Origin: Takakia lepidozioides
Taxonomy: Eukaryota > Plantae > Bryophyta
Reading direction: 5' to 3'
Assembly (NCBI GenBank): GCA_030704615.1
Contig: CM060731.1
Coordinates: forward strand, 82,956,001 to 83,020,000
Length of the DNA: 64,000 nt
Positions 1-41,554 of this stretch are shown piece after piece. Under the pieces are notes generated by a model that made no database searches, had not been told where the DNA came from, and worked only from the letters and a program-made list of their open reading frames with translations. A program made the position numbers and the translations under genes. Each line of letters opens with the position of its first letter. Position 1 is the first letter of the stretch.

Positions 1-282
1 GTAAGCTGTGTCAGGCTGTGTCGGCTGTGACTCGTTGTGACGGACTGTGGCTGTGCGAGTGTCAGTGTTGTGATTGGCTGTACGACTGTGTTGGGCTGTC
101 GGCTGTGTCGGCGTGACGGCTGTGTCTGGCTGTGACGGGCTGTGTCGGGCTGTACCCCCCCCCCTCCCCTAAAGTGCGCTGCTGTCACCCCTAAGGCTCC
201 TGTTGGTCTCAGTCTGCGCAAAAATTAAGGGTACCCCCACAGAACCCGTAAAAGCGTCTAAGTCCCAAGCAGCCCTCTAACA
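1..282 (-). repeat. 3' LTR of family A copy 1 (partial), with CTGTG/CACAG minisatellite
   Basis: Begins TGTTAGAGGG at 282 on the minus strand, directly after a polypurine tract. The same terminus occurs at 16811, 18142, 19556 and 26812. Confidence 0.9.
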
Positions 283-308
283 TTTACCCCTCCCCCTCTC
301 AAAAAGCC
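283..308 (-). other. Polypurine tract (PPT) of family A copy 1
   Basis: Minus strand GGCTTTTTGAGAGGGGGAGGGGTAAA abuts the LTR TG. Equivalent tracts lie at about 16786-16810 (+) and 19557-19581 (-). Confidence 0.85.
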
Positions 309-324
309 ATGTCCTCACGATTTA

Positions 325-3300
325 CTATTTGGGATTAGCAAACCTTTGTGAGCGAGCACCCTTCTGACGGTGAGAGTCTCGTGAAGGACTCCGTGTGCGA
401 GCCCGAGTCCTGTCACTGGTTGACGACGGAGATGATTGAGCACTACCTGGAAATGTCAGTCCCTCATTTGGCTGATATCGTGGTAACCTCTCAGGCATAG
501 GAGATCCCCGTCGTTTCTTCTCTGCCATCTGAATTGCGTAGTCTTCTGCCATGTCAAAAGAGTCCGCTGAAGAAACAGTAGTATCAGAGTCTTCGTCGCC
601 CCTCAGGTGTTTTAACGGTCGAACTCTAACTGGAATCCGTTGGGGCATACAATGTGGTCCCACCATGTCTGGAAGTTTACACTGTTCAACCTGCTGTAAG
701 CTCTTAATGGCAAAATTGGTGAACACCCTGAACTCCTTGTCCGTATAGGTGAGTGGTGTGCCAATGACTTGGGAACAGTGCAAGTATTTCCATGCCTCAT
801 GGCCCTTAAAGAAAATATCGTCAGGGCCAAATTTTTGTGTTGTCAAATTGTTCCAAACCGAATGAAACCATGAACGAAGTTGGGAATCCTTCTGCATCAT
901 AACCTTTGCATCATATAGGTACATATGAGGTGGCATTGAAGGTAAGACCCAATGATCCCCACTGGAATAACTCAGAAATCGCGATTGCATCTTCTGCTGC
1001 TCAATGTGATAACGTGCCAGAAAACAAGCAGCATAGTATAACCCGCAGCCCATGACAATACTTGCTACCTCCTTTGGTCTTGGTATAAATGTACCCCATG
1101 TACAACCTGGAAGGCAATTAATTCCTTCAACATGGTACTTGCTTCATGCCAGAACCTCGCAAAGTGATGCAGGAGTTGCGGGCCATGTGCACTAGACGTC
1201 CAACCTGCCTGCCAACCAGCCTGGTGTCTAGGGTATTTGAACACCAGGCTGGGACTCAGTCTTCAAACAGTCTGCTGTGCCAGCCAGCAGACCAAACCTG
1301 GCTGACCAGTGAGCCTCATGCGGTTTGCCCATCAGACTGGCCATTCTCAGCACGGTGGACTCTCATTACGAACCTTAGTCCTAGTTGCCACTGGCAGCCA
1401 AATGCGCATGATCTGGTAGTAATGTGCCAACGACTGCGGAGGACTAAATTCCTTCCAAGCCAAATCCAACACAATGGGAATTTGGTTGAAGGGCATAATC
1501 ATAGTCTGACTATACTCCCGTGCAGCAGGAGTCCTAGGTGGGTTAAAAGCAGCATCCCCCCATACCTCAGGCTGTGGCGGTTGTGGTCTGGCTGTAGTAA
1601 CAACAGGGTCAGCTACCGGCACAGTCACTTGTTGTGGTATTGGTAATACTGGCCCTTCCACCACTGGCATCTCCTGCACCCCTTGCGAAGAAGACTGAAA
1701 AATTAGAGTTCTGGCTTGTAATTAAGTAGCCATCAGCTGCTCCTCAGGTACAAAGACTCTCTTATCAATATTTGAAGTCAGGTCCTCCACCTGAGTCTGC
1801 AGGCCGTCTACATCCTCCTTTAGCTCCGCTATCCTACTATAGACATTGTCTATAGTAGTTGTGGCAATGTTCTGCACCTGCAGTCTGAGCTCATTCATCT
1901 CGCCTTGGGTGAGCTTCCGTGGTGCTTTGCCTTCCACCGGCCCTTGTGCTAACCAGATCTGCATAAGGTGGTTATCCACCAAGTTGTGTGTGGCACCCCT
2001 AAGAGTCTGCTCCTCTGTGAGCCTGTACACATCTAATTGCTGCTGTAAAGCCTCCATGCGCTTTGCATGAGGTTCAACCAAACTCGCATAGGCAGCAGCC
2101 AAATTATTAGCTTCCTTCCAAGCCTTGTTAGCCACAGAGAGTTCATTTCTATTGACCATGACTGTTTGTTGCAATTCCAGGATGTACCTTTCCTTGTCAG
2201 CTTCAACCTGCCTGTATTGCTTGAAAGTATTCTCATTGCGACAGATTGTATTCTTCATATCAATAATGAGTTTCGTCTGCTCGACATTCTCTGCCTCTGC
2301 CTTCATTAATAGCTCCCCTTGTCTGTTAACTTCTAATGTAGTTTGCTGAAGAGTAGTTGTGAGTGTAGCACATTGTATGGCCATCCTCTCATATACTGTG
2401 TGCAACTCCGTATGTAGTGCATTCACTTCTTGCAACTTGCTCTCATGCTTCACCTGCATTTGGTATAACTGTTGCTTATGTGCTTCGTGCAACTGGTCCT
2501 GCGCGAGGCCTGCTTCAATCAAATGTTCCTTGGCCAACTGCAAAGCAGCTTTTGTATCCTTGAACTCTTGCTGTAACTTGAGAGTGACCTCCTCATCAAC
2601 CTTGTTTGCACACTCAGTGGCAAGTCGAGCCTCAAACTCCTTCCTGAGTTCCTCCCTCAAAGCTGCCAATTGGGTAGATGGAACATGGGATTTCACATAA
2701 GTGCCCAACAAATTAAGTGTCCTGCTTATGGAACTCATAAGCATGGCTGCTGAGGGTCATCATGGTGAGCTTGCTGCTGTTCTCCCCCTGATCCTCAACA
2801 GTGTGATGCCTCACGAACCATTCAGGCCATTGCCCCACCAGATTTTCTTCCTGACCACCTCATCCGCACAGGTGCTGCAGTGTCTTGATATTCTACCCTG
2901 GTACCTCCGTCACAGGTGTGGGTATTACATGCACAGCAGGGTTTTTCCCTGGAACCTCTGCACCTTTGGAATCACTGATTCCCTTACCAAGCCAGAGTTT
3001 TCATAGAGAAGGTCACCCTTCTCAATTTCGGCCACGACCTGCTGTAGTGGGAATGTCCAACCTTTCTCCTTCTTGAGCAATTGGTGGTGATGCCACAGCA
3101 TATACTAGTTGTGGAACCTCCAAAACAAGAGTCAATGGTTGTGGTGGCTGTGGTATCGAAGTGACTTCCTCTTCCCTCTCTGAAGGCCCTGCTTCCAATA
3201 GTAGCAGCTCTTTGTGCTGTTGTGCCCCCTTCCTGCACAAGAGCTTGGGAAACATTATCATGTGGTTTCCGTGAAGCCAGTGGATCCGCCACCAGTGCCT

Positions 3301-3902
3301 CTGTCTCTTAGACTGGTGTTGCGCTGCCAGTCCACCCTCACTGTGTGAAGAGCCTTGCTCTTCAATTGCAGTGGTTTCTGCTCAAACACTCCCATCTCCT
3401 TTCTTTCCCGAGTATCAAGTATGCAAGAATCAAGAATTATTTGAGCAATGATTGGACCGGACACAATGATCGGAGACTTAGCAGCAGTGCTCTGTAACCT
3501 CTTCATCTCGTCCACCAATCCGTTGTACATTAACTCCGCCCAAGCGACATCCTCTCCCCTTAAAGCTTTCAGGATCTCCTCTGTGAATGACCTGCTCAAA
3601 TACTGTTGGTTCTGTTTCATGGCAAACAGAACGTTCAAGATTTGGCCAACTTCTCTAAGCCCTGGGTACTCGGCTTTGGTACAAGCAAAACCTTGAGTTT
3701 TAAATAAACTCCCTTCTTGGAACAAATTCCCTATCTGCAATCTTGCCCTGTGCTCATCCACATCCACATGTCCTGATGGCAAATCAAACAATTGCTGCAG
3801 GTACTGGGGAGTAATTTCTATATCTACTCCCCTCACCTGAGTAAGTATTGTCCGAGGCTCAAAGTTCCAAAGAAATTGTATCATGAACTGCCTATGATGC
3901 AA
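325..3902 (-). pseudogene. Large extra 3' ORF of family A (N-terminal plant-retroelement domain, low-complexity linker, long coiled coil, conserved C-terminal domain), frameshifted
   Basis: ORF pieces 3258-3902 (TQVRGVDIEIT...WAELMYNGL), 3022-3261, 1722-2744 (heptad-rich), 1347-1679 and 325-1053 are collinear with homologues in copies 2 and 3. Confidence 0.75.
1170..1369. other. About 200 bp foreign insertion in the extra ORF of copy 1, with a 12-bp perfect hairpin
   Basis: Absent from copies 2 and 3, where about 25 bp of coding sequence sits instead. Stem CCAGCCTGGTGT (1216-1227) pairs with ACACCAGGCTGG (1241-1252). Confidence 0.75.
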
Positions 3903-4296
3903 GGACCAGTCCTTGCGTAGTATGGTTGGCGCAGAATGAAATGGGTAAGTGCTTGTAAGCCTGTGGGGCTTGCAAGTATCGATTTAGAGAAAAGGTACTC
4001 TCCGCTCGTCTGTCCTTGTGCCACTGCGTAAGTAGTAATGCGAGTGTGTAGTCTGTTATTTCCGCCATAGCGTCAAAGCTATAGCTTTGATTGTCTCTCC
4101 CGTCGAGACGCCCGTTACATGGAACGACGCCGACTCTTGCGCTCAGAATCCCTCTAAATTCTTGATTTTGCTTCTTGGAAAATACCCTGTGCAGGTAATT
4201 CTGGCTCATGATTGGCTGTTGACTCTGTGATTGGTTTTGTAATTTAATTCCCTTCCGTGGATTTTCCCCCCTGGACTGTCCACTAGGATAGCACAT
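3892..4296 (-). CDS. Small conserved ORF between pol and the extra ORF (unknown function)
   Basis: YSFDAMAEITDYTLALLLTQW is matched by YSFEAMEELTNYTLVILLTQW at about 12987-13049 in copy 2, despite divergent flanks. Confidence 0.4.
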   Translation of the reverse strand: MCYPSGQSRGENPRKGIKLQNQSQSQQPIMSQNYLHRVFSKKQNQEFRGILSARVGVVPCNGRLDGRDNQSYSFDAMAEITDYTLALLLTQWHKDRRAESTFSLNRYLQAPQAYKHLPISFCANHTTQGLVLAS

Positions 4297-4562
4297 GTGG
4301 GCATTGGTTTCCCTTTTCTGAACTCGAAAAGGGTTCCGTTACCCTGGCACTGAATGCATTAATGGGCCCACAATTAATTGCCCGGGTAGGTACTTTGACG
4401 GCCAATTTTGTCTTCTTTCTTGATGACACCCGTTTGCATTCATGCCCGGCTGTGTGTCTCGCCCTGGCGTCCACGTGTCCATTTTTAAACCTGCCTCCGT
4501 CCACTTTTCCGCCGGCCACTCTCCGGATGTTAACCCACGTCCACCTGTCACTGATCCTATGG

Positions 4563-4725
4563 ACTGTGTAACCCTGATAGGCTGTGTTGAGCTGTGACAG
4601 GCTGTGTGGCAATGTGATGGGGTGTGATAGGCTGTGATGGGCTGTGATAGGCTGGATGGTGATACTGTGTCACGCTGTGTTGGGCTGTGATAGGCTGTGC
4701 CACACTGTGATGGCCTGTGATAGCC
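4563..4725 (-). repeat. Internal CACAG-based (about 10-bp period) minisatellite just after integrase
   Basis: Repeated ggctgtgata/ggctgtgt units. The counterpart is at 12281-12525. Confidence 0.85.
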
Positions 4726-4769
4726 GCTTGTACTGCCCGCCCTGGTCATATACGCTCGGCTTAGCGACA

Positions 4770-7700
4770 AGTGCTCCATACTCCGTTGGTATCACTGGCG
4801 CAGCCCGTGACTGCTTCAACATGCAAATCATGCTACAATGGTTTGTCATGGATACCACTGTACCCCTTCAACTTATTGGCATTGACTCTTCCCAGCATCT
4901 CCTTGTTAATGGTTTGTAACATGGCTGTGTTGTTATCATACATCTTCTGTATGACATAAGGTCCTTTCCATGGTGATTTAAGTTTAGAAGCTTTAATCTT
5001 CCCCTTCTTCTGCAACCAGAGAACCAAATCTCCCGTCTTAAAAGTCTTTCTTTGCCTTCATCAAACTGTTCCTTCCTCTTCATCTGAATTTTGGTCATGT
5101 TATCAGCTGCATCAGCACGTACTTCTTCCACATGGTATAATTCATGTTTCCTGACCTTAATTGAATCTTGCAATTCCATTCTCTTTCCCCATTCCGTTCT
5201 CATGGTAGGTAACAAGAATTCCACTGGAAGTAAAGCTTCCATACCATAACTAATTGGAATGGTGTATACTTAGTGGTGACTTTATATGAAGTCCTGTATG
5301 ACCACAAAGCTGTCAGCAGCTTTGTATCCCAATCCGTTCTGTTTGCATTGACTATCTTAGCCAAGATAGTACATAGTATTTTGTTGGTAGCCTCTGCCTG
5401 CCCATTACCCTGTGGGTAATACGTTGTACTCTTCCTATGCACAATCATGAACTCTTTAGTCAATAGTTCAATGGTCTCATTAATGAAGTGACTTCCCTGA
5501 TCACTGATAAATTCCAAGGGACAGCCAAATCGTGTAAGTATGTTCTCATACAGGAACCTTGCTGTGGACTTGGCTGTGTTGTCCCTCAAAGCTTTAGCTT
5601 CCACCCACTTCGTAGTATAATCAGTGGCTGTAATTATGTACTTGTTCTGTGTATTCTTGGCCGGTGGGTTAATTGGTCCAACAAAGTCTAGTCCCCATTT
5701 CTGAAATGGTTCAGTAGGCATCGTAGGATGCAAAGCCATCTTCCCAGATCTCTGCAAAGGTCCTAGCCTCTGACATTCATCACAACTCTGACAATACTTG
5801 TGTACATCCTTGAACAAAGTAGGCCACCAGTAACCTGCAAGTAGTATCTTCCTACTGGTAGTCTCTTCTCCAAAATGTCCTCCAGCCACTCCTTTATGAA
5901 CTTCCTCCAAAACTTTATTTACTTCATGGTGGTACAAGCATCGTTTAAGTACTCCATCAGGTCCTAGCTTATACATTCTGCCCCTACCATAGTATAAGGT
6001 AAAGCCTTGATAGCGATTCTCTTCCTCTGCTCCTTACCATAACTAGGTGGGCACTGACCATGAGTAAGGTAGTATCTGATTGGCCACTGCCAATCTAACC
6101 ATTCATCTGCACTTCCTTGCACCTCCATTGCAAATAAACTCGCATCAGGTAATTGGTCGTCTACTCCTGTGGCGGCCTCTCCTGTTGTTAGGCGTGACAA
6201 ATGATCTGCCACAAGATGCAAACGGCCAGGCTTGTAAACAACTTCGAACTCAAACTCGTGCAAGATTATTAACCACCTCGCTATCCTTCCACTTATCAAA
6301 GGTTTGTTCACCAGATATATCAGAGCCTGGTGATCCACATAAAACATAAACTTTCTTCCCAATAGGTAATGCCTGAATTTCTTGACTGCATAAATCATTG
6401 CCAGTGCTTCTCTTTCAGTTGTGCTATAGTTCCTTTCAGCACTGTTCATCAACCTGCTAGCATAGTACACAGGTGAATCTATATTTCCTGTAACATTTTG
6501 GGCTAACACCGCTCCCAACGCTTCTCCTGAGGCATCACAGTGAACATGAATACTACATGCCAGTGAGGGTTAATCAGCACAGGTGTAGTTGTTACTGACA
6601 ATGTAAGTTCCTCAAAAGCCTGTTGACATTCAGCTGTCCATGCAAACACTGCATCTTTCTTCAGAAGCTTGCTCAATGGTGCTGCTATCTGTGCATACAT
6701 TTTGACAAATCTTCTGTAATAATTGGTTTGTCCAAGGAATCTCCTTAAACTCTTAACATTTACTGTGTGGTGAGGCTTTAATGGCCTCTGTCTTCCTGGG
6801 ATCCAAGAAGTCCCCTCTACACACAATTTGTCCCAAAGCACCCCTGAGTTCACACACAGAAGTACACTTCTCTGGATTCAGGCCCAGACCTCTCATTCTG
6901 CATCTGGCCAAACATAACTCCAATTTATGCAAGTGCTCATTCTTAGAGCTGTACACACTGAAATCATCCAAGAACACCTGCATGAAATCATCCAGATACT
7001 CATGAAAAGATTCACTTATCACTCTCTGAAAGGTTGCTGGTGCATTACAAAGTCCAAAAGGCATGACTTTGTATGCATAAGCACCCCAGTCTGTGATGAA
7101 AGCCGTCTTTCCCTGGTCTTCTTCTGCCACTTGCACTTGATTATAACCACTGAAGCCATCCATGAATGAGTACATCTCATGGCCTGCCACAGTGTCCAAT
7201 ACCGCTTCTGTGAATGGCAAAGGGAAAGGATCTTTCTTCGTGCAAGCATTCAACTTCTTATAGTTCACACAAACTCTCAGTTTACCATTCTTCTTGGGAA
7301 CTATCACAATGGGTGACAACCAAGTTGTATACTCTATCGGGTATATAAACTTAGCCTCACCCAACTTCTTGATCTCTTCTCCAACCTTCTGTGCATAGTT
7401 GGGATTCATTCTGTACCTTGCCTGTTTGATTGGTACTGACCCTGGTTCCAGTTCAATCTTATGCTGACAGATCTCAAGTGGTATCCCTTTTAGATCCTCA
7501 TAGCTCCAAGCAAATACATCTCTGTATTTGATGAACAAACTCTTAGCTTCCTCAAAGAATTCTGGCTCCAAATCAGCCCCTACCTTCACCATCCTCGGTT
7601 CCTCTTCAGTTCCCACATTCACTTCTCTCACCTGCTCATCAGCTGTGATTGTCCAACCAGTCACCACTTCATCCTGTAAACTCACAGTGGCTGGTTCCTC

Positions 7701-8549
7701 TAGGATTTCCATTTCTCCTTCTCTTTCTTCATAAAAATGTGGTGGGTAACTGCTTATTTCACCTTCAATTGGTGTTGCTGACACTACACCACAGCAGATA
7801 CCTCTTAAACAACTTAGGCCTTCCAGCCGCATCTCTGCAACCTGCTCCCACTCTGGGTGTGCAGCCAACAGGGTAGCTTCCTGCTCCTCATCCAGTCCTA
7901 CTCTCTGACCCCTCGAGGTCTTCTCGTAGCAGGTAATCTACTAGATTTCTTTGTGGTAATTTGTATCTCGTGCATCCCATTATGCACGGTTAGTAACTGA
8001 GAATTCCAGTCATGGAATACCCTGGCCTGTTTCAGCCACGGACGTCCCAATAATAAGGAGTAAGCCTCCATGACTTCATCCATCTTCAACACAGGTACTG
8101 TGATCATAAAGATCATCTTCTGTATCTGTATCTTAACTCCTCTTATTAATCCCAATGGTTGTACACTCCTTTGATCTGCCATTGTTACTGTAAATGGGGC
8201 TGGTTTCATGTTACTTAGACCAAGCTTCTTTCCTTAATTGGTCTGTCATGATATTTACTCCAGAGCCTCCATCTATCAGTACATCAGTTAGTTCTGTGCT
8301 TCCAATTCTCAATTGGATTACTGGCATAGAATCATCAAAGTCCATGACTGTTTCTCGCCCTTCCGGCTTCACATTATAACTGGTTACCTTGCTGTTCAGG
8401 TCTGTGTTTCCTGTCTCCTGGGCAATTTGATTGATTGCTTGATACAGCCTGTGTCTACAATAAGGTGCCACAGCCAATAGCTGTCCAATGGTAATCTCTG
8501 CTTTGGTCTGGCATATTACTTCAGCCAAAGTCCCTTCATTACTTTGCAT
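4770..8549 (-). pseudogene. pol (aspartic protease, RT, RNase H, integrase with GPY/F motif), frameshifted
   Basis: Motifs seen: VLIDGGSGVN (PR); MPFGLCNAPATFQR and FLDD (RT); YSTTEREALA and YVDHQAL (RH); H..GHFG..CDEC, WGLDFVGP, ISDQGSHF and GQAE (IN); WKGPY. Confidence 0.95.
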
Positions 8550-8576
8550 GTCTGCATCTTCTTTCTTCCTTCATCC

Positions 8577-9533
8577 TCACTCACTTCTTCTTCCATCAGA
8601 ATCAGAGGAATCTGCCATAGGAATATCAGTACTCTTCTGCATTTCCCTTATGGTATCTGCCACTTCCTTGTGCAGTTCCTTCTCATCCCTCCAAGCCTCA
8701 TCATCTTCAGGCACATCACTGCCATCTTCATTTTCATCATCTTCCTCAACTACTGGAGGTATTAGTTTGGCTTTGCTTCTCGTTACTATCATTGTACTTA
8801 CTTCTGGTACAACACATGGCCTAACCATGTGAGCTGCCACCACTGGGCCCTCATTCACAGGAGCTCTCATCTCATTCTGGTGTCTAATCCAGAATGAACA
8901 GGCTGCCTTGCAATGTCCTGGCTGATTACAATAGTAACACAGTTCTTCACCATTGGGTCCCCGCCCTTGGTCTGCTCTAGGATTATTTCTGTAATCCTGA
9001 TTCCCTGGCTGATAATTCCCCCTTGGATTGCCCTGATAGTTGGCCCTGGAATTTCCTTGGTAATTCCCTCTTGGATTACCTCTCCCTTCCATACCATTGT
9101 TATAACCACCAGGCCTACCATAGTGGTCCTGATCACTGTTTCTTCTTGGTTGGGGCTGCACTTGATGCACCCTTACTTGCCTAGGTTCTCTAGCTGCTGT
9201 CCTTCTGTTGTAGTAACAATTCTCAGTAGAATGGTTATCCATTTTACAGATAATACAGTGTTTCTCCTTCATGTGGCATTCAGTGGTGGTATGGCCTTCA
9301 TTCTGGCACTTTGCACACCAAACACCCTTCCTCCAATGTGTTGCAGCCTCTGTGGCATACTTCTTCAAGATTTCTTCTAATCTTTTCTCATAGTTATCCC
9401 TCTTCAACTTCTCCTTTCTCTTACTCTTCCTTTTCAGTTCTTGCTCTTCTTCTTCATCTGACTCATCCTCAGAGTCCTCAATCATCCCTTTTCTCTCTCC
9501 TGAGCATTCCCAATTGCTCAATTCTGTTTGCTG
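8577..9533 (-). pseudogene. gag C-terminal half with three CCHC zinc knuckles (5'-truncated at the 9534 junction)
   Basis: CAKCQNEGHTTTEC, CIICKMDNHSTENC and CYYCNQPGHCKAAC, with a GN/RG/YQ-rich spacer before the third knuckle. Confidence 0.85.
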
Positions 9534-12531
9534 TACCACCTGAAATCTGTCAGCATAAGATTGAACTGGAACCAGGGTCAGTACCAATCAAGCAGGCAAG
9601 GTACAGAATGAATCCCAACTACGCACAGAAGGTTGGAGAAGAGATCAAGAAGTTGGCTGAGGCTAAGTTTATATACCCAATAGAGTATACAACTTGGTTG
9701 TCACCCATTGTGATAGTTCCCAAGAAGAATGGTAAACTAAGAGTTTGTGTGAACTACAAGAAGCTGAATGCTTGTACGAAGAAAGATCCTTTCCCTTTGC
9801 CATTCACAGAAGCAGTATTGGACACTGTGGCAGGCCATGAGATGTACTCATTCATGGATGGCTTCAGTGGTTATAATCAAGTGCAAGTGGCAGAAGAAGA
9901 CCAAGGAAAGACAACTTTCATCACAGACTGGGGTGGTTATGCATACAAAGTCATGCCCTTTGGACTTTGTAATGCACCAGCAACCTTTCAGAGAGTGATA
10001 AGTGAATCTTTTCATGAGTATCTGGATGATTTCATGCAGGTGTTCTTGGATGATTTCAGTGTGTACAGCTCTAAGAATGAGCACTTGCATAAATTGGAGT
10101 TATGTCTGGCCAGATGCAGGATGAGAGGTCTGGGCCTGAATCCAGAGAAATGTACTTTCTGTGTGAACTCAGGCGTGCTTCTGGGACACATTGTGTATAA
10201 GAGGGACTTCTTGTGGATCCCAGGAAGACAGAGGCCATTAAAGCCTCTCCACCACCAACAAATGTTAAGTCTAAGGAGATTCCTTGGGCAAACCAGTTAT
10301 TACAGAAGATCTGTCAAAAGGTATGCACAAATAGCAGCACCATTGAGCAAGCTTCTGAAGAAAGATGCAGTGTTTGCATGGACAGCTGAATGTCAACAGG
10401 CTTTTGAGGAACTTACATTGTCAGTAACAACTACACCTGTGCTGAATAACCCTCACTGACATGTAGTATTCCATGTTCACTGTGATGCCTCAGGAGAAGC
10501 GTTGGGAGCGGTGTTAGCCCACAATGTTACAGGAAATATAGATTCACCTGTGTACTATGCTAGCAGGTTGATGAACAGTGCTGAAAGGAACTAGCACAAC
10601 TGAAAGAGAAGCACTGGCAATGATTTATGCAGTCAAGAAATTCAGACATTACCTATTGGGAAGAAAGTTTATGTTTTATGTGGATCACCAGGCTCTGATA
10701 TATCTGGTGAACAAACCTTTGATAAGTGGAAGGATAGCGAGGTGGTTAATAATCTTGCACGAGTTTGAATTCAAAGTTGTTTACAAGCCTGGCCGTTTGC
10801 ATCTTGTGGCAGATCATTTGTCACGCCTAACAACAGGAGAGGCCGCCACAGGAGTAGACGACCAATTACCTGATGCGAGTTTATTTGCAATGGAGGTGCA
10901 AGGAAGTGCAGATGAATGGTTAGATTGGCAGTGGCCAATCAGATACTACCTTAATCATGGTCAGTGCCCACCTAGTTATGGTAAGGAGCAGAGGAAGAGA
11001 ATCGCTATCAAGGCTTTACCTTATACTATGGTAGGGGGCAGAATGTATAAGCTAGGACCTGATGGAGTACTTAAACGATGCTTGTACCCAGGAAGTTCAT
11101 AAAGGAGTGGCTGGAGGACATTTTGGAGAAGAGACTACCAGTAGGAAGATACTACTTGCAGGTTACTGGTGGCCTACTTTGTTCAAGGATGTACACAAGT
11201 ATTGTCAGAGTTGTGATGAATGTCAGATGCTAGGACCTTTGCAGAGATCTGGGAAGATGGCTTTGCATCCTACGATGCCTACTGAACCATTTCAGAAATG
11301 GGGACTAGACTTTGTTGGACCAATTAACCCACCGGCCAAGAATACACAGAACAAGTACATAATTACCGCCACTGATTATACTACGAAGTGGGTGGAAGCT
11401 AAAGCTTTGAGGGACAATACAGCCAGGTCCACAGCAAGGTTCCTGTATGAGAACATACTTACACGATTTGGCTGTCCCTTGGAATTTATCAGTGATCGGG
11501 GAAGTCACTTCATTAATGAGACCATTGAATTATTGACTAAAGAGTTCATGATTGTGCATAGGAAAATTACAACATATTACCCACAGGGTAATGGTCAGGC
11601 AGAGGCTACCAACAAAATACTATGTACTATCTTGGCTAAGATAATCAATGCAAACAGAACGGATTGGGATACAAAGCTGCTGACAGCTTTGCGATCATAC
11701 ATGACTTCATATAAAGTCACCACTAAGTATACACCATTCCAATTAGTTTATGGTATGGAAGCTTTACTTCCAGTGGAATTCCTGTTACCTACCATGAGAA
11801 CGGAATGGGGAAAGAGAATGGAATTGCAAGATTCAATTAAGGTCAGGAAACATGAATTATACCATGTGGAAGAAGTACGTGCTGATGCAGCTGATAACAT
11901 GACCAGAATTCAGATGAAGAGAAAGGAACAGTTTGATGAAGGCAAGATAAAGACTTTTAAGACGGGAGATTTGGTTCTCTGGTTGCAGAAGAAGGGAAAG
12001 ATTAAAGCTTATAAGCTTAAATCACCATGGAAAGGACCTTACATCATACAGAAGATGTATGATAACAACACCGCCATGTTACAAACCATTAACAAAGAGA
12101 TGCTGGGAAGAGTCAATGCCAATAAGTTGAAGGGGTACAGTGGTATCCATGACAAACCATTGCAGCATGATTTGCATGTTGAAACGCAAAAGCAGTCACG
12201 GGCTGCGCCAGTGATACCAACGGAGTATGGAGCACTTGTCGCTAAGCCGAGCATATATAACCAGGGCGGGCAGAACAAAAGCGACACAGCCTATCACAGC
12301 CCAGCACGGCGCAATACAGCCTATCACAAATTACCACAGCGTGTCACAGCCTATCACAGCTTACCACAGTGCAACACAGCCTATCACAGCCCAACAAGGC
12401 GCGACACAGCCTATCAGTGCAATACAGCCTATCACAAACTACCACAGCGTGTCACAGCCTATCACACACAGTACAGTATGACACAGCCTGTCACAGCTCA
12501 ACACAGCCTACTAGGGTTACACAATCCATAG
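9534..12531 (+). pseudogene. pol (RT-RNase H-integrase) of copy 2; the integrase frame reads through the minisatellite
   Basis: ORFs 9311-10459, 10578-11102 and 11062-12531 are near-identical to copy 1 pol, with a TAYHS-repeat tail. Confidence 0.93.
12281..12525 (+). repeat. Internal CACAG minisatellite of copy 2
   Basis: Repeated acagcctatcac units. Confidence 0.85.
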
Positions 12532-13231
12532 AATCAGTGACAGGTGGACGCAGATAACTTCAGGGAAATGGCCGGCGGAAGAAAGGACGGAAGCCAGTTT
12601 AGAAAGGGACACGTGGAAGGTAGGGCGCAACACACAGCTGAGAAGGAAGTGCAAGAACAGGTGTCATCAAGAAAGAGAACCAAAATGGCCGTCAAAATAC
12701 CTACTTAGCACGTCAATTCGGATGAATGGCGGGCCCATTAATGAATACGGAAAAAGGGCAACAGAACAAACGGCAAGTACAGAAACGCGAAATTCTTGTC
12801 ACATGTGTTATCCTAGTGGACAGTCCAGCAGGAAAGTCCACTAAAGAAAATTAAATCTAAAATCTAGTCACAGCGGTTACAGCCATCGAAAGCCAGAAAA
12901 GGGATCAAGAAATTGGAGGGAATTTAAGCGCAAGAGTCGGCGTCGTTCTAAGGAACGGGCGTCTCGACGGGACAAACCATCAATGCTATAGCTTTGAAGC
13001 TATGGAGGAACTAACAAACTATACGCTCGTAATATTACTTACGCAGTGGTATAGGGACGGAAGAACAAAGCGAATCGTTTCTCTTAATCTATGATTGCGA
13101 GCCCCTAGGCTTACAATAAATTACCCATAGCTTTTTGTGGCAACCATACGTTTATGCTTTGTGCCCTTCAGGCATTTCTTCAATTGTTACAGCCAAAATC
13201 TTTCTGTGGGTCTAGAATGAGAGAGTGAGAG

Positions 13232-16200
13232 GATGGAAGAAATCAGGTGAAGAGCACCACAATCTGCTGAAACAAACGATTGCTACTCCACGCGTTACAG
13301 TTACTGAAGGAGTAGTGCGATTGGAAGGATTGCAAAAGCATAGATTGGACATTGCACCCATAAACAGTACATGTTACAATTCTTGCAGAATTTGAGCCTA
13401 GGACGGAGCAACCACGGTGAAGGAGTTGAATTAGAAATTACTCCCCTATACTACACGCAATTGTTTTTCGATTGCCAGCAGGTCAGGTGCAATGTGGATG
13501 ATCACGGGCAAGACTTTCCAAATAGGGGACTTATTCCAAGAAGGGATTTTCTTTTAAAACTCAGGTTATGCTTGTACCAAGGCCCGTGTACCCAGGGCTA
13601 AGGGAGGTAGGCCAGGTATTGACCGTTCTGTTTGCCATGACACAGAACAACGTATTTTGAGCAGATCTTTCACAGAGGAAACTCAAAGCCCTGAGTGGAG
13701 AATAGGTAGAATGTTCGGACATAATGTACAACGCACTGATAAGGAGAGAAAGATTACAGGGCACTGCCGCTAAGTCCCTATCATAGTGTCTGGCCCAATC
13801 ATTGCTCAAATAATTCTTGATTCTGGCATACTTATGCTCGAGAAAGAAAGGAGATGGAGTGTTTTTGAGACTAAAACCACTTGCAATGGAAGAGGCAATG
13901 CTCTTCACACAGTGAGGGTGGACGGGCAGGCAACCCCAGACTAAGAGACAAAGGCGGGGAAAGACTGTAGTGGCGGATCCACTGGCTTCAACGGAACCGC
14001 ATAATAATGTTTCCCAAGCTCTTGTGCAGGAAGGGGCACAACACACAAATAACTGCTATTATTGAAGCGGGACCTTCAGAGAGGGAAGAGGAAGTTACTT
14101 CAGTATACACAGCCATCACAGCCAGATGATCGGCTTGTCAAGAAGTTACCACAAGTTGTCCTGCAGTTCCACCATAAATAATTGATTTGAGAAAGAAGGG
14201 TTAGATATTCCCACTACAGAACAGGTGGTGGCAGAAATTGAGAAGGGCGACCTCTCTATGAATATTCCTGGTCCTGGTCAAGGACACGGTGATTCCCGGA
14301 GGTTGCAACGGTTGTACATGGGACACCCTGCGGTGCATATAATACACAACATGTGACGGAGGTACCCAGGTAGAATGTCAAGACACTGCAGACCCGGTGA
14401 GGATGAAGTGGTTCAGGAAGAAATCTAGTGGGGCAATGGCCTGAGTGGTTTCGTGATGCATCACCAACTGTGAGGATCAGGAGAAACAGCACAGCTCACC
14501 ATGATTACCCTCAACAGGCCATGCTTATGAGTTCCATAAGCATGACACTTAATTTGTTTGGGACTTATGTCAAATCACATGTTCCAACTACCCAATTGGC
14601 AGCTTTGCGGGGAGGAACTCAGGAAGATTTTGAGGCTCGACTTGCCACTGAGTGTGCAAACAAGGTCGATAAGAGGTCACTCTCAAGATGCAGCAAGACT
14701 TGGAGAGTACAGAAGCGGCGTTGAATTGGCCAGGAACAATTATTGAGCAGGCCTCGCGCAAGACCAGTTGCACGAAGCACATAAGCAATAGCTATAAACC
14801 AAATGCAGGTGAAGCATGAAAGCAAGTTGCAAGAAGTGAATGCACTACATACGGAGTTGTAGACAGTGCAAGACAAAAGGCCATACAATGCGCTACACCC
14901 ACTCACACTATGCTTGACCAAGCTAGAAATAAACAGTTAAGCGGAAAGATGTACGAAAGCAGAGACAGAGAATGTTGAGCAATTGAAACTCATTGTCGAT
15001 AATGAAATACAATCTCTCGCATGAAATACTTTCAAACAATACAGGCAGTTTGAAGCTGACCAGAGAGGTACATCCTGGAGTGCCAAAACGCTCATGGTAA
15101 ATAGAAATGAACTCTCTGTGGCTAACAAGGCTTGTAAGGAAGCCAATAATCTGGCTGCTTCTGCCTATGCGAGTTTGGTTGAACCTCATGCGCAGCGCAT
15201 GGAGGCTTTACAACAGCAGATAGATGTGTACAGGCTCACAGAGAGAAAACTCTAAGGGGTGCCACAAGCAACTTGGTGGATAACCACCCTTATGTAGGTC
15301 TGGTTAACACAGGGCCGATAGAGGGCAAAGCACCAAGAAACTCACCCAAAGCGAGAATGAATGAGCTCAGACTGCAAGTGCAGAACATGCCACAACTACT
15401 ATACACAATGTCTATAGTAGGAAGCATAAAAGAAGTTACAGGATGATGTAACGCCTGCAGACTCAAGTGGAGGATCTCACTTCAAATATCGACAAAAGAG
15501 TCTGTATACCTGAGGAACAGCTATTGGCTTCTTATTTACAAGCGAGAACTTTAGCTTTTCAGTCTTCTTTCACAGGGGGTGCAGGAGATGCCAATGGTAC
15601 AAGAACCAGTGCCACAACACCACAACAAGTCACTGTGGGCCAGTAGCTGACCCTGTTTTTTACTACACGCCACACCCACAACCACCACCACAGCCTGAGG
15701 AATGGGGGAACGCTGCTTTTACACCCACCTAAAACTCCAGCTGCAAGGGAGTACAGTCGGGCCTAATGATTATGCCCTTCAACCAAATTCCCATTGTGTT
15801 GGATTTGGCTTGGAAAGAATTTAGTCCTCCGCAGTCATTGGCACATTACTATCAAATCATGCGCATTTGACTGCCAGTGGCCACTAGGACTAAAGTTCTC
15901 TTCCGAACAATCGACCAATGGAGGATCATCACTTTGCGCAGTACTGGCATGAGGCAAGTACCATGTTGAAGGAATTAATTGCCTTCCAAGTTGTACATGG
16001 ATTTCATTTATACCAAGACCAAAGAGATAACAAGTATTGTCATGGGCTGCGGGTTATACTACGCTGCTTGTTTTCTGGTACGTTATCACATTGAGCAACA
16101 GAAGATGCAAACGCGCTTTCCTGAATTATTCAGTAGGGATCATTGGGTCTTACCTTCAGTGCCACTCATATGTACCTATATGAGGCAAAAGTTATGATGC

Positions 16201-16772
16201 AAAATGATTCTCAGATTCGTTCATGGTTTCATGCGGCCTGGAACAATTTGTCAACACAGAAATTTGGGCCTGACGATATTTTCTTTAAGGGACATGAGAC
16301 ATGGAAATATTTGCACAATTCACAAGTCATTGTACAAACAACCACTCACCTGGACAGACAAGGAGCTCAGGGTCTTCACCAATTTTGCAATTCAGCGCTT
16401 ACAACAAGTTTTACAATTTAAACTTCCAGACATGGTGGGACAACATTGTATGCCCCAGAGAATTCCAGTTAAAGTTTGACAGTTAAAACACCTCAGGGGG
16501 GACGAGGATTCTGATACAACTGTTTCTTTAGCGGACCCTTTTGACATGGCAGAGGACTATGCAATTCAGAGGGCAGAGAAGAAGAGACGGGGTCTCCTAT
16601 GCCTGAAAGATTACCTCGATATCAGCCTCCAGAGGGACTGACATATCCAGGTAGTGTTCAATCATCTCCCTCAACCAGTGACAGAACACGGGCTCGCACA
16701 CGGAGTCCTTTACGAGACTCTAACCGTCAGAAGGGTGCTCGCTCACAAAGGGTTACAAATCCCAAACAGTAA
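13232..16772 (+). pseudogene. Extra 3' ORF of copy 2, heavily indel-disrupted
   Basis: Collinear peptides (MLMSSIS...YVKSHVP, MGCGLYYAACF, KFGPDDIFFKGHE) and a TAA at 16770-16772 just before the PPT. The start position is approximate. Confidence 0.75.
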
Positions 16773-16810: not shown

Positions 16811-17364
16811 TGTTAGAGGACTGTCTGGGACTTAGGCACTTTTACGGAATCTGTGGGGTACCCTTAATTTTTGCACAGGCTGAGACCAACAGGAGCCTTA
16901 GGGGTGACATCAGCGCACTTTAGAAGGGGGTTACACAGCCCGTCACAGTCCGACACAGCCCCTCACAGCCAACACAGCTCGTCCACAGTCCAACACAGCC
17001 CGTCACACAGCTTCGCACAGCCGACACAGCCCGACACAGCCAACACATTCCCGTCACAGCCACACAGCCAGTCACAGCCCGACACAGCCCAACAAGTCGC
17101 AGAGCCAGTCACAGCCCGACACAGCCGTCACACAGCCGGTCACAGTTTCACACAGCCAGTCACAGCTTGACATAGCTGTCACGACCATAGGGAACGGATA
17201 CAACAGGACAGGGACGACTGTGGGGAACAACATCTGCGAATGGAACATGTTAGTTCACGGATGACGGTTAGTGAGGGAAACGGTTAGAACAACGGATAGG
17301 AAGATAAAGCTAGGAGCAAAGACTGGAAAAGGATCAATTCTGGGGGATCACTTCTTGGGGGGAT
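16811..17364 (+). repeat. 3' LTR of copy 2 (3'-truncated)
   Basis: PPT followed by TGTTAGAGG, with a CACAG array at about 16933-17180. Confidence 0.88.
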
Positions 17365-18142
17365 CATGCATTCATTTCACAGCTTCACTCATGTCTCTCT
17401 ACACAGTGTGCTTGTATCGAATAAGTATTAGATTACGATTTATCAGGTACTAGGCCAATGTCAAGTGACTCTAATCCACCCTAAAGTATCACTACACAAC
17501 AGTCTCGCATGAATTAAAGCATCTACTGTCATCTCTTCTCCTACTCCGTGCTCTCGTTCTTGCTCTCCGCCTGATCTCCTCTCCTCCATGACCCTCAAGC
17601 GCTCCCCCGTGAAGTGTCCTTTCTTTCCGTTGCCGCTCTCCTTATCTGCCCCCCAAGCTGTTCTAACCACCTAACTAATTAACCGTTATCCCCGAAGTAT
17701 CACGTTCCTTCTGCAGATGTCGTTCCCTCACAGTCGTTCCCTGCCATTGATAACTGTTCCCCATGTACTGTGACAGGTTGTGTCAAGCTGTGTCGGCTGT
17801 GTTGGATGTGACGGGCTGTGACTGGCTGTGTCGGGCTTGTTGCTGTGACGGACTGTGTCGGCTGTGCGAAGCTGTGTCAGGCTGTGTGGGCTGTGACTGG
17901 CTGTGACGGACTGTGGTCGGCTGTGCGAAGCTGTGTCAGGCTGTGTCAGCTGTGATTGGCTATGACGGACTGTGTCGGGCTGTGTCTGGCTGTGATGGGC
18001 TGTGTCGGGCTGTGTAAAACCCCCCCCCCCTAAAGTGCGCTGCTTTCACCCCTAAGGCTCCTGTTGGTCTCAGTCTGCGCAAAAATTAAGGGTATCCCAC
18101 AGAACCCGTAAAAGCGTCTAAGTCCCAAGCAGCCCTCTAACA
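17365..18142 (-). repeat. Family A LTR (3'-truncated), probable 5' LTR of copy 1
   Basis: TGTTAGAGGG at 18142 with no PPT. Homologous to 18816-19556. The first about 110 bp are nearly identical to 170-282. Confidence 0.85.
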
Positions 18143-18686
18143 TCGACTCCCTAAACATTATCAGGTTCAGCATTCCCAACCAAGTTATCCCCAACCTGAA
18201 CAAATGGCTGCAAGGATTGGCCATCCCCACCAAACTCAACCTCATCATCCGAAGCTTCAAGGATAGTCTGGCGCACACTTACAAGGTCTCTTGGTTGAAG
18301 CTTCATAGGTTTCCAGGGATTGACATGTGAGGCATTCTGACATTTCAGGAAATGTCCATCCAAACATGAAGCGCAAAAGCAAGACAAGTCTCTTGTCTTT
18401 ATGTTAGTAGGATTGATAAGATCACTTGCATAAACACTATGCATGCTCTGACTTCCCTTGACAGTGCTGCAGTCCCACCGCTTTTCCCGCTCAACATCAT
18501 CGTGACCAACATCCCAAAAAACCCTGCGAACTTCCGACCTTGCCTTTGAGTAGGAAGAGGAAGGCCTATCTCCTCCCAACTGTCGAGCGCTTTTACTCAC
18601 CCATCCCTTTGCTATCCGAGGTGGAAACTCCAAAATAGAAGAGTTGGATATCTCTAAGCACTCAGCCCGCTCAGAATAATCAGTCA
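18143..18686 (-). pseudogene. DNA-transposon transposase C-terminal fragment, Sola2-like (tentative), sandwiched between two LTRs
   Basis: Open 178-aa frame with TVKGSQSMHSV...RDLSCFCASC...C motifs recalled from Sola2-type transposase C-termini. The catalytic core is not present. Confidence 0.4.
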
Positions 18687-21600
18687 TGACCTACAGCTAG
18701 TGAATCATGGTTGTGCTTCCTATTTGTATTTCTTCTTGCCTTCATGTTAGCAATTTACCTTATTGTGTATACTGAAGCATCAGTTTGCTTCAGTATCTAC
18801 CAGGTTCCATTCACTCATCCATTCATTCCACAGCTTCACTCATGTCTCTCTACACAGTGTGATTGTATCGACTAAGTATCTGATTATGATTTATCAGGTA
18901 TCAAGACAATGCCTTGGTGTCTCCAATCTGCCCTACATTATCACTACAGCTTTGCATGTAACAAGCATCTATTGTTCATCTTTCCTCCTTCACCGTGCTC
19001 TCCATCCTTGCTCCCGTTCTTGCTCTCCGCCTGATCTCCTCTCATGCATGACCAAGAAACGCTCCCCGTGAAGTGATCCCCTCCCTGGTGCTGCTCTGCC
19101 TAATCTACCTGCAAGCTGTTCCAACCGCCTAACTAACTAACTGTCACCCCTGAAGTAACACGTTCCCTCTGTAGATGTCGTTCCTACACAGTAGTTCCCT
19201 GCTAATGATAACCGTTCCCTTCGTGCGTTGTGACGGGCTGAAACTGTGTTGGGCTGTGACTGTGCCGAACTGTGACTGGCTGTGTAAAGCTATGTCGGGC
19301 TGTGACTGGCTGTGAAAAACTGTGTCGGGCTGTGATAAGCTGTGATAGACTGTGACGGGCTGTGTCGGGCTGTAATAAGTTGTGATAGACTGTGACGGGT
19401 TGTGTCGGGCTGTGATAACTCATGACTTGACTGTGTGAGCCTGTCTACCACCCCTAAACCTGTGTGGCCTAAGTCTACCATCTGTAAGTCTGCGCAAAAT
19501 TAAGGGTACCCCACAGAACCCGTAAAAGCATCTAAGTCCCAAACAGCCCTCTAACATTACCCCTCCCCCTCTCAAAAAGCCGTGTCCTCACGCTTTACTG
19601 CTTAGGATCAGCAAACCTTTGTGAGCAAGCACCCTTCTGACGGTGCGAGTCTCTTGAAGGGCTCTGTGTGCGAGCTCAAGCCCTGTCACTAGCTGATGGA
19701 GGTGATTGATCACCAAATGGAAATGTCTGACCCGCCTATGGTTGATAACGAAGTGACCTCTCAGGCATAGGAGATCCCCGTCGTTTCTTCTCTGCCATCT
19801 GGAGTGCATAGTCCTCCGCCATGTCAAAAGGTTCCTCTGAAGAACCAGTAGTATCAGAATCATCTTCCTCCCTGAGGTGTTTTGGCGGCCGATAACTTTA
19901 AGTGGCTCCTCCGGAATCCTGCGTGGCATACAATGTTGGCCCACCGTGTTTGGAAGCTTAAACTGTACTACTTGCTGTAAACGCTTGCAAGCAAAATGAG
20001 TGAACTCCCTGAACTCCTTGGCCGTATAGGTGAGAGGTGTGCCAATGACTTTGGAACAGTGTAAGTATTTCCAAGCTTCATGTCCCTTATAGAAAATATC
20101 ATCAGGGCCCAATTTTTCTTTGACCAAGTTGTTCCAAGCCAAATTAAACCATGAACAAAGCTGGGAATCCTTCTGCATCATGACTTTCGCATCATAGAGA
20201 TACATATGGGGCGGAACTGAAGGTAAGACCCAATGATCCCCACTGGAATAACTCAGAAATTGTGATTGCATCTTCTGCTGCTCAATGTGATAACGTGCCA
20301 TGAAACAAGTAGCATAGTACAATCCACAGCCCATGACAATACTAGATACCTCCTTGGTCTTGGTGTAGATGTACCCATGAACAACCTGGAAGACAATTAA
20401 TTCCTTCAGCATGGTGCTTGCCTCAGACCAGTACCTTGCAAAATGATGATCCTCAATGGGTTGATTGTTCGGAAGAACCTTAGTCCGAGTTGCCACTGGC
20501 AACCAAATGCGCATGATCTGGTAATAATGTGCCAAAGATTGTGGAGGACTGAATTCCTTCCAAGCCAAATCCATCACAATGGGAATTTGGTTGAAGGGCA
20601 TAATCATAGCCCGATTGTACTCCCGCGCAGTAGGAGTTCTAGGTGGGTTGAAAGCAGCATCCCCCCAAACCTCAGACGGGCCTCAGACTGTGGCGGCGCC
20701 ATGGTATCAACAGCGTCAGCCACCTGCACAGCCACCTGCTGTAGAGGTTGTGATATTGCCACCGCTGTCCCTCCTACTACTGGCAACTCTTGCACCTCCT
20801 GTGATGAAGACTGGAAAATCAGAGTCCTGGCATGCAAATAAGTAGCCACCAACTGCTCCTCAGGAACAAAGACTCTTTTGTCAATATTGGAACTCAAGTC
20901 ATCCACTTGAGTTTACAGGCCTTCCACATCATCCTGTAATTCCGCTATCGTACTATAAACATTGTCTATAGTAGTTGTGGCAATGTTCTGCACCTGCAAT
21001 CTAAGATCATTCATCTCCCCCTAAGTGAGCTTTCGTGGTGCCTTCCCTTCTACCGGCCTTTGTGTTAACCATACTTGCATAAGATGATTATCCACCAAGT
21101 CCTGTGTAGCACCCCTGAGAGCCTGCTCCTCCTTGAGTCTGTACACATCTAACTGCTGCTGTAAAGCCTCCATGCGCTTTGCATGAGGTTCAACCAGGGC
21201 CGCATAGGCAGCAGCCAGATTATTGGCTTCCTTCCAAGCCTTGTTAGCCACAGAGAGTTCATTCTTGTGGCTCATGAGTGATTGCTTCAACTGTAGGATG
21301 AACCTTTCATTCTCAGCCTCAACCTGACAAACTGTTGGAAAGTATCCTCATTGCAACGGAGAGTAGCCTTCAGATCAACAATAAGTTTCCCCTGCTCTAC
21401 TGTCTCAGTTTCGGCCATCATACGTCTCTCTGCTTGTCTGTTTACTTCTAACGCAGTTTGCTCCAGAGCAGTTGTTAGTGTGGCACATTGTATGGTCATT
21501 CTCTGATGAACTGTCTCCAACTCTGTATGAAACACCTTCACTTCTTGCAATTTGCCCTCATGCTGCACCTGCAATTGGAATAGCTGCTGCTTATGTGCTT

Positions 21601-21797
21601 CATGCAATTTCCCCTGCTTCAGACCCGCTTCAATCAGATTCCCCTTTGCTAGCTGCAGGGCAGCCTTGGTGTCCTCCAATTCTTTCTGCAACTTGAGGTT
21701 GGCCTCCACATCCACCTTGTTTGCACACTCAGTGGCAATTCTAGCCTCAAACTCCTACTTGAGTTCCTCCCTCAAAGCTGCCAATTGTGTGGATGGA
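18687..21797 (-). mobile_element. Family A copy 3: complete 3' LTR (18687-19556), PPT and the 3' part of the extra ORF, cut at 21797 by a DNA transposon
   Basis: LTR runs TG...CA over about 870 bp, with PPT at 19557-19581. ORFs 19588-20607, 20604-20906, 21021-21290 and 21287-21715 are homologous to copy 1. Confidence 0.85.
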
Positions 21798-26811: not shown

Positions 26812-27229
26812 TGTTAGAGGACTGCTTGGGACTTAGACACTTTTACGGGATCTGTGGGGTACCCTTAATTTTTACACAGATTGAGACCAACAGGAGCCTT
26901 AGGGGTGACAACAACAGGCTTTAGGGGGGAGATACACAGCCCAACACAGTCCATCACAGCCCGTCACAGTCCAACACAGCCCGTCACAGCCACACAGCCA
27001 GTCACAGCCCGACACAGCCCGACACAGCCCAACACAGTCGCAGAGCCAGTCACAGTCCGTCACAGTTTCACACAGCCAGTCACAGCTTGACACAGCTGTC
27101 ACGACCATAGGGAACGGATAGCAGGACATGGAACGACTGTGGGGAACAACATCTGCGAATGGAACATGTTAGTTCACGGATGACGGTTAGTGAGGGAAAC
27201 GGTTAGAACAACGGGTAGGAAGATAAAGC
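26812..27229 (+). repeat. Family A LTR fragment (copy-2 subtype, 3'-truncated, no PPT)
   Basis: TGTTAGAGG start. Closely matches 16811-17310. Confidence 0.88.
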
Positions 27230-36485: not shown

Positions 36486-36540
36486 GCGCGGGACCTCGAA
36501 TTGATCAAGCTCAAACCAACCACGCTCAAAACTGGAAGCA

Positions 36541-41490: not shown

Positions 41491-41554
41491 GTGTGAATTG
41501 TTTGTCGTCTAGGTAGCTTGTGATTGCTCCTGGACGGCCAACCGTTCTGCAAAG

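What the first reader, a model, noticed from the sequence alone, without database searches (positions are those of the whole stretch)
325..3902. Gypsy family with a giant, conserved extra sense ORF between pol and the 3' LTR
Seen: three copies (325-3902, 13232-16772, 19588-21797) carry the same ORF of roughly 1200 codons, ending just before the PPT. It has a VRGVDIEIT-type N-terminal domain, a ~300-aa coiled coil, an aromatic-rich ~250-aa C-terminal domain (MGCGLYY..F..RYHIEQQK, GPDDIF.KGHEAWKYLH) and an RS-rich tail. Differences between copies 1 and 3 look mostly synonymous or conservative. Known: Athila/Tat-type elements carry extra ORFs at this position, and env-like ones have transmembrane segments. 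I see no convincing TM segment and do not recognise the C-terminal domain. Inference: a selected accessory protein, possibly nuclear (anti-silencing, targeting or RNP scaffold).
Basis: partly seen in the sequence, partly recalled or inferred. Interest (0 to 1): 0.8.

Follow-up and report, generated by a model that had tools for sequence, protein, structure and literature searches.

The report
Orphan accessory gene in plant retrotransposon
A very abundant plant jumping gene carries, after its usual genes, a third large gene that selection has preserved although every copy here is broken; its front part is likely a distant relative of the unexplained extra genes of Athila elements, and its protein would likely work in the nucleus to keep the element switched on rather than act as a virus-like envelope.

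Summary
The gene is real, but no window copy is intact: stops and frameshifts break all three (longest open sense stretch 364 codons), and copy 3 lacks the first third. Pairwise dN/dS is 0.36 and 0.28 against a neutral control near 1, and is below 1 in every segment tested. The element is a non-chromovirus Gypsy without aRH or chromodomain, probably of a seed-free plant; its RT lies outside the clade of Athila-type elements. The N-terminal domain is a probable remote member of the Transposase_32/Athila extra-ORF family. It matches one related clade (HH probability 80%) and a pooled profile (z about 6), and 19 of 28 related loci carry such a domain in the same sense position. The C-terminal domain is an orphan: one relative among 1.84 billion proteins, no link to the C-domain of other clades. 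No convincing membrane segment. A 10-bp CACAGC array lies both in the LTR and after pol, ahead of a CpG-rich spacer. Best guess: a nuclear, oligomeric self-activator or anti-silencing factor (untested). The scan's earlier notes report similar ORFs inside LTRs in another genome. Verdict: new variant of a known kind.

The parts
1..282 (-). 3' LTR of copy 1 (runs off the window), with 10-bp CACAGC array at 5-153
287..300 (-). polypurine tract of copy 1
   Evidence: sequence
325..3902 (-). extra sense ORF, copy 1, broken by stops and frameshifts; first in-frame ATG at 3884
3381..3884 (-). N-terminal domain, probable remote Transposase_32/Athila-ORF relative
2757..3380 (-). low-complexity linker, frame uncertain, not analysed for selection
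1725..2756 (-). long helical, likely coiled-coil region
562..1540 (-). orphan aromatic-rich C-terminal domain (interrupted in copy 1 near 1170-1370)
328..561 (-). basic R/S-rich tail with KKRR
3900..4570 (-). CpG-rich spacer ahead of the ORF, candidate internal promoter or splice region
   Evidence: CpG o/e 0.79 against 0.22 in pol
4575..4723 (-). 10-bp CACAGC array after pol, same unit as in the LTR
4830..8400 (-). pol of copy 1: protease, RT, RNase H, integrase; frameshifted; no aRH, no chromodomain
8580..9534 (-). 3' part of gag with zinc knuckles; 5' end missing
9534..12200 (+). RT-RNase H-integrase of copy 2, head to head with copy 1 and 91-99% identical to it
12284..13170 (+). copy 2 array and CpG-rich spacer (o/e 0.95)
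13340..16772 (+). extra ORF, copy 2, heavily frameshifted
16811..17365 (+). truncated 3' LTR of copy 2
17367..18143 (-). further full-length LTR of the family (TG...CA, about 777 bp)
18830..19557 (-). 3' LTR of copy 3
19588..21797 (-). extra ORF, copy 3, coiled coil to stop only
26812..27229 (+). LTR fragment of the family

Best explanation
This is a selected third gene of a non-chromovirus Gypsy retrotransposon, and its product is likely a nuclear, oligomeric accessory factor that would help keep the element's own copies transcribed. Shown: the gene sits in sense between integrase and the PPT, evolves under purifying selection in every segment tested, and is preceded by a CpG-rich spacer and by the same 10-bp array that lies in the LTR. 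Supported by weak profile matches: its N-domain is the same module that starts the extra ORF of Athila-type and other related elements. Inferred: it would be expressed from a spliced or internally started RNA and would oligomerise through the coiled coil. The basic tail would carry it into the nucleus. The N-domain (or the C-domain) would recognise the family's own arrays or chromatin and counter silencing, as VANC does for its transposon, and the lineage-specific C-domain would contact a host or element partner.
For: Selection. N-domain kinship: HH probability 79.7%, P 1.5e-5 to the clade of L022/L023/L052/L016 (60 shuffles: mean 11.8, max 22.0, observed 38.3). Pooled 11-sequence profile: score 26.1, 145 colinear columns, 100 shuffles mean 12.3, max 20.4; HMMER 2 of 1000 shuffles as high. 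Atlas leads PF20167 and PF03078 at 0.86. L021 and L008 stretches hit PF20167 weakly. Position: 19 of 28 related loci have such a domain sense-downstream of integrase, 0 of 28 antisense. The same layout is seen in intact relatives, e.g. a 1267-codon frame in L008. Spacer CpG o/e exceeds pol in the window and in 3 of 4 related loci. Array in LTR and spacer. Literature: the Athila domain and VANC are both modelled as coiled-coil pentamers and have many predicted host contacts (PMC13547354, passages). VANC targets form tandem repeats (PMC5735166, abstract). Athila ORF2 is made from a spliced subgenomic RNA (PMC7197481, passages). A PF20167 ORF is predicted nuclear (PMC11728184).
Against: No test touches function. 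No PMD or DUF1985 hit for any of 12 N-domain sequences at E 10. The window N-domain alone hits no Pfam family. It scores only P 0.02-0.08 against each sub-profile, and 421 of 1000 shuffles equal it against the three PF20167 members alone. The L022-type clade was first picked with the window's own profile, and it links only weakly to the Athila-type profiles (P 0.04-0.76). 14 of the 19 positive loci helped build the profiles. Atlas scores under 0.9 are leads only. An LTR-shared spacer motif was not found in the 13 related loci checked, though several have spacer arrays of their own. L021's spacer is not CpG-rich. L010, the nearest RT relative with downstream DNA, shows no such domain.
Confidence: 0.35

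Rival explanations
1. RNA-level accessory factor: a Rev-like exporter or particle scaffold that binds the element's RNA through the R/S-rich tail and oligomerises through the coiled coil.
For: Conserved basic R/S-rich tail (dN/dS 0.31-0.36; composition). The CACAGC array would be present in the RNA as well. The retroviral accessory analogy is drawn in PMC7264820 (parts 1-2 read).
Against: Only 3 RS/SR dipeptides. No RNA-binding family hit. The intact relatives L008 and L009 end without such a tail.
Confidence: 0.2
2. Integration-targeting adaptor: it bridges the pre-integration complex to a chromatin mark, standing in for the chromodomain this lineage lacks.
For: No chromodomain after integrase. 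The two-domain rod shape suits a tether. Accessory TE proteins have many predicted host partners (PMC13547354 passages).
Against: No reader domain recognised. Phygy and Selgy are listed without extra ORFs and without a chromodomain (PMC6317226 supplement).
Confidence: 0.15
3. Suppressor or decoy that works by protein contact: the orphan C-domain binds a host silencing factor with no sequence specificity.
For: The C-domain is under selection (0.19-0.35) yet differs between clades, as expected of a host-facing module.
Against: No partner known. Between the window copies the C-domain evolves no faster than the rest.
Confidence: 0.13
4. Env-like or movement protein that takes particles across membranes or plasmodesmata.
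For: It sits in the env position. One 19-residue window reaches hydropathy 1.86. A long coiled coil is also a feature of fusion proteins (own knowledge).
Against: That window aligns with the last helix of the N-domain, whose counterpart scores 0.96 in L008. The whole-protein maxima of L008, L021 and L009 are 0.96-1.30. There is no hydrophobic leader or C-terminal anchor, and the tail is basic. Neumann et al. call the env function speculative (passages).
Confidence: 0.1
5. A captured host gene or nested element carried along without use.
For: All three window copies are broken. One distant C-domain relative (P0005) has unknown context.
Against: dN/dS 0.28-0.36 between copies that diverged by dS 0.3-0.4. 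Contigs of other copies cover the ORF along its whole length. Related domains sit in the same position in other clades.
Confidence: 0.05

Closest known systems
Athila 3' sense extra ORF ('env-like', ORF2; Pfam Transposase_32 PF20167, ATHILA PF03078)
   Same: Sense position between pol and PPT in an aRH-less non-chromovirus; probable remote kinship of the N-domain; coiled coil.
   Different: About 1150 codons, against 395-446 in the three PF20167-positive loci and 487 in sunflower Athila 14 (PMC11728184). It has an extra orphan C-domain and no Pfam hit. Its RT lies outside the 100-support clade holding those loci.
Long extra ORFs of the L008/L021/L027 clade (RT sister to the PF20167 loci; hosts not recorded)
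   Same: Same order of N-domain, acidic linker, coiled coil and conserved C-domain; up to 1267 codons; no membrane segment.
   Different: Their 296-residue C-domain (376 relatives) shows no detectable homology to the window's C-domain.
Phygy and Selgy lineages (REXdb, Neumann et al. 2019)
   Same: Non-chromovirus, no aRH, seed-free plant hosts; nearest named RTs are from Riccia and Adiantum at about 60% identity.
   Different: They are described as lacking extra ORFs (passages and supplement), whereas this family and the L022 clade have one. Membership was not tested against REXdb sequences.
VANC anti-silencing proteins and PMD proteins (MAIN/MAIL1)
   Same: Functional analogy only: element-encoded, globular domain plus coiled coil, tandem repeats in the element's non-coding DNA.
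   Different: No sequence match to PMD or DUF1985, no usable structure comparison, and a different transposon class.

Membership tests
Ty3/Gypsy non-chromovirus | PR-RT-RH-INT order, LTR, PPT | tested here: met
Ty3/Gypsy non-chromovirus | no chromodomain after integrase | tested here: met
   no hit in the integrase ORF of copy 2 read to its stop
Tat (TatI-III, Ogre, Retand) | additional aRH domain in pol | tested here: not met
   no second RNase H in the pol ORFs scanned; 7937-8580 only read by eye as protease
Athila | RT groups with Athila | tested here: inconclusive
   quick midpoint-rooted tree of 93 rows without REXdb references; the window RT lies outside the 100-support clade of the PF20167 loci
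Athila | PBS tRNA-Asp/Asn, 5-bp TSD | not testable with these tools
   no 5' LTR with internal region in the window; no genome held
Phygy/Selgy | RT clade, PBS, 4-bp TSD | not testable with these tools
   REXdb sequence file too large to read; no element ends in the window
Phygy/Selgy | no extra ORF (as described) | tested here: not met
   against the supplement table
Transposase_32 (PF20167) / ATHILA (PF03078) domain | Pfam hit at the gathering score | tested here: not met
Transposase_32-like superfamily | remote profile similarity over the whole domain | tested here: inconclusive
   pooled profile P 0.0013, z about 6; weak against PF20167 members alone; Atlas 0.86
Envelope protein | signal peptide and transmembrane anchor | tested here: not met
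   hydropathy scan only: one borderline window inside the N-domain, none at either end; the true start codon is uncertain
VANC/PMD-like anti-silencing factor | PMD/DUF1985 fold | tested here: inconclusive
   no Pfam or PDB sequence hit; N-domain model unusable, pLDDT 34
VANC/PMD-like anti-silencing factor | sequence-specific binding and loss of silencing marks | not testable with these tools
   needs experiments

The most novel reading that the evidence does not exclude
The 3' sense 'env-like' gene is ancestral to land-plant non-chromovirus Gypsy elements, from seed-free plants to angiosperm Athila. It is not an envelope but a VANC-like, sequence-specific anti-silencing module: a shared N-terminal domain on a coiled-coil oligomer reads each family's own tandem array (here CACAGC, in the LTR and ahead of the gene), with a swappable C-terminal effector of new fold.
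Probability: 0.15. Interest if true: 0.8.

Novelty: new variant of a known kind. Interest (0 to 1): 0.42.

Why it matters
What the 'env-like' ORF of plant retrotransposons does is an open question (PMC7264820; PMC6317226). This family extends the gene to an aRH-less lineage outside the Athila-type clade, where the reference classification lists no extra ORFs. It shows selection without a membrane anchor and offers a candidate target (an array shared by LTR and spacer), which makes the anti-silencing idea testable. It also points to two undescribed conserved domains: the window's C-domain and the 296-residue all-helical C-domain of the L008/L021 clade.

Tried and rejected
No own genome, so no count of intact copies. 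Homologue searches with the C-domain: none among longer proteins, one among 1.84 billion representatives, no Atlas hit, none in metagenome contigs, no PDB sequence hit, no look-alike in earlier notes. RT search of viral contigs found nothing. I suspected by eye that the window's C-domain aligns with the L008/L021 C-domain; five tests failed: hhalign, a 124-sequence HMM (-1.7 bits, below many shuffles) and a profile alignment (25.1 against shuffles 21.2 +/- 2.4). The claim is dropped. That other domain folded at pLDDT 68, all-helical, with no fold match (best Z 6.3 over a 48-residue hairpin), which shows neither novelty nor absence. The single-sequence model of the window N-domain was unusable (pLDDT 34). 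The window's C-domain was never folded. The coiled-coil homodimer job gave 'no answer'. No RNA holder was listed; two guessed-RNA runs hold pieces of both ORF and pol as contigs, which cannot show expression, strand or splicing. No C-domain relative was found downstream in 19 related loci. A first dN/dS run had one segment in the wrong frame and was corrected. The careful RT tree did not finish; the quick tree is used. Ten literature searches listed no paper on this family or on extra ORFs in Phygy-like elements; passages of PMC7466625 and PMC12885004 mention none. Supplements 1 and 3 of PMC6317226 could not be read and may already list the L008-type ORF groups.

Full report
Observation. The window is repeat-rich plant DNA. 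Self-comparison shows three copies of the region at 82-85% identity. None is an open frame. Copy 1 has pieces of 241, 344 and 272 codons, copy 3 one of 364, and copy 2 no sense piece of 150. Copy 2 differs from copy 1 by 67 gaps, 61 of them not multiples of three, which may be decay or noisy assembly. Copy 3 begins at the coiled coil. No genome is held, so intact copies could not be counted. Contigs from public runs cover the ORF along its whole length and are very many (83,942 laid on 1-9700 in one run). They differ in length from copy 1 at several of its breaks, so those breaks are not family-wide.

Selection. On gap-free codons in the frames of copy 1, with a transition-weighted Nei-Gojobori count, dN/dS is 0.36 (714 codons, bootstrap 0.28-0.46) for copies 1-2 and 0.28 (621 codons, 0.22-0.36) for copies 1-3. 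Each segment gives 0.19-0.39. Re-dealing the observed changes within CpG/CHG context gives about 1 (minimum 0.66 of 300). The opposite frame that shares third positions gives 0.45 but is full of stops. The linker 2760-3260 was left out. Pol between copies 1 and 2 gives 0.20 at dS 0.05.

The element. Gag with zinc knuckles, protease, RT, RNase H and integrase are present, with no aRH and no chromodomain. The nearest named RTs are from Riccia and Adiantum at about 60% identity, so the host is probably a seed-free plant; earlier AI notes call it a moss, which I did not test directly. In a quick midpoint-rooted tree of 93 RTs without reference sequences, the window RT lies in a 95-support set with most of the Riccia and Adiantum rows and the L022 clade. 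It falls outside the 100-support clade that holds the PF20167-bearing loci and the L008/L021 group. Neumann et al. 2019 (passages and two supplements) define Tat by aRH, list 3' extra ORFs for Athila and none for Phygy or Selgy.

N-terminal domain. No Pfam hit. The Atlas gave leads to PF20167 and PF03078 clusters at 0.86. An RT-guided scan returned 79 loci, several with long sense frames after integrase: 1267 codons in L008, 925 in L021, 745 in L009, and 395-446 in three loci with clear PF20167 hits. Against a pooled profile of 11 of these N-termini the window domain aligns colinearly over 145 columns (score 26.1; 100 shuffles 12.3 +/- 2.4, max 20.4; HMMER 2 of 1000 shuffles as high), but only weakly against each subgroup and not against the PF20167 members alone. 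The window's own profile picked five loci of one further clade, all sense and about 1.8-2.2 kb after integrase. A profile from four of them returns the window domain at iE 5.6e-4 and HH probability 80%, and finds three more loci. Overall 19 of 28 loci with at least 2.4 kb after integrase carry such a domain in sense and none in antisense; 14 of the 19 helped build the profiles. I put kinship to the L022 clade at about 0.85 and to PF20167 at about 0.7.

Middle and C-terminal parts. A 344-residue helical stretch has no proline over about 200 residues and marginal heptad periodicity. The C-domain has one relative, P0005, 22% identical over 160 ungapped residues, context unknown. It could not be linked to the conserved C-domain of the L008/L021 clade, which has 376 relatives, folds all-helical at pLDDT 68 and matches no solved fold clearly. 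The L022 clade also has a charged helical stretch after its N-domain but no detectable copy of either C-domain. The shared plan thus appears to be N-domain, linker, coiled coil and a variable C-end. Hydropathy gives one borderline window (1.86), in the last helix of the N-domain, whose counterpart in L008 scores 0.96. The tail is basic, with KKRR.

Non-coding context. The same 10-bp CACAGC unit forms arrays in every LTR and right after pol. The spacer ahead of the ORF keeps its CpGs (o/e 0.79 and 0.95) while pol (0.22), gag (0.04) and the ORF (0.34-0.44) have lost them. L008, L009 and L022 show the same contrast and L021 does not. Several relatives have spacer arrays, but an LTR-shared unit was not seen in 13 checked. 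No transcript evidence could be had.

Mechanism. Steps shown: position, selection, arrays, CpG-rich spacer, no convincing membrane anchor. Steps inferred: a subgenomic RNA (as for Athila ORF2, PMC7197481 passages); oligomerisation (as modelled for the Athila domain and VANC, PMC13547354 passages and section 10); nuclear entry (KKRR; a PF20167 ORF predicted nuclear, PMC11728184 passages and section 9); action on the family's own arrays (VANC targets form tandem repeats, PMC5735166 abstract; PMD resembles VANC, bioRxiv 10.1101/2024.09.27.615353 passages). Against this, no PMD or DUF1985 similarity was found and the structure test failed for want of a usable model. I give the self-activator reading 0.35, an RNA or particle scaffold 0.2, a targeting adaptor 0.15, a protein-contact suppressor 0.13, env or movement 0.1, and a passenger 0.05. 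I formed the VANC idea from recall and the papers before seeing two earlier AI notes on LTR-borne ORFs in another genome that say much the same; they are not independent support.

Verdict. Extra sense ORFs at this place are a known class (PMC7264820, parts 1-2 of 3 read). New here, as far as ten searches of this library show, are the lineage, the size, the orphan C-domain and the evidence that the N-domain links several distant clades. New variant of a known kind; interest 0.42.

Noticed in passing
window 9534-12434 against 4575-7483: Copy 2's pol is 91-99% identical to copy 1's while its extra ORF is only 75-90% identical; the switch falls at the CACAGC array. This suggests a fold-back duplication or recombination at the array, or an assembly chimera.
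   Followed up: partly
window 22724-26436 (-): Broken MULE-like DNA transposase with cysteine-rich motifs and a SWIM-like finger (Pfam E 0.097), no other Pfam hit; the GCM-like label is recalled.
   Followed up: no
window 32052-35040 (-), LTR pair 29487-29971 and 36540-37023: A different Gypsy element with a dUTPase between protease and RT (Pfam E 4.5e-8); its LTRs are 96% identical.
   Followed up: no
window 37891-42483 (-): LINE with endonuclease and RT, and a 142-bp x3 repeat at 41556-41972.
   Followed up: no
window 18151-18690 (-): Cysteine-rich transposase-like fragment between two LTRs of the family; no Pfam hit.
   Followed up: no
window 47042-47674 (+) and 57629-59600 (+): Host gene exons: an Enhancer-of-polycomb-like domain and a probable bHLH gene (motif recalled).
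   Followed up: no
L008:16383-17393, L021:17200-18084, L027:12101-12988: Undescribed, well-conserved 296-residue all-helical domain ending the extra ORF of an Athila-sister clade; 376 relatives, no convincing Pfam or fold match.
   Followed up: yes
L014, L022, L023 (about 12-13 kb elements with paired LTRs): Low-GC non-chromovirus elements with a decayed extra ORF of the same plan; a stop-to-stop ORF search would miss it, which may explain why some lineages are listed as lacking one.
   Followed up: partly
window 1-9700, table 2: Summed contig depth is about three times higher over gag-pol than over the extra ORF at 85% likeness; subfamilies with a more diverged or absent ORF may exist, but this depth is no copy number.
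   Followed up: no
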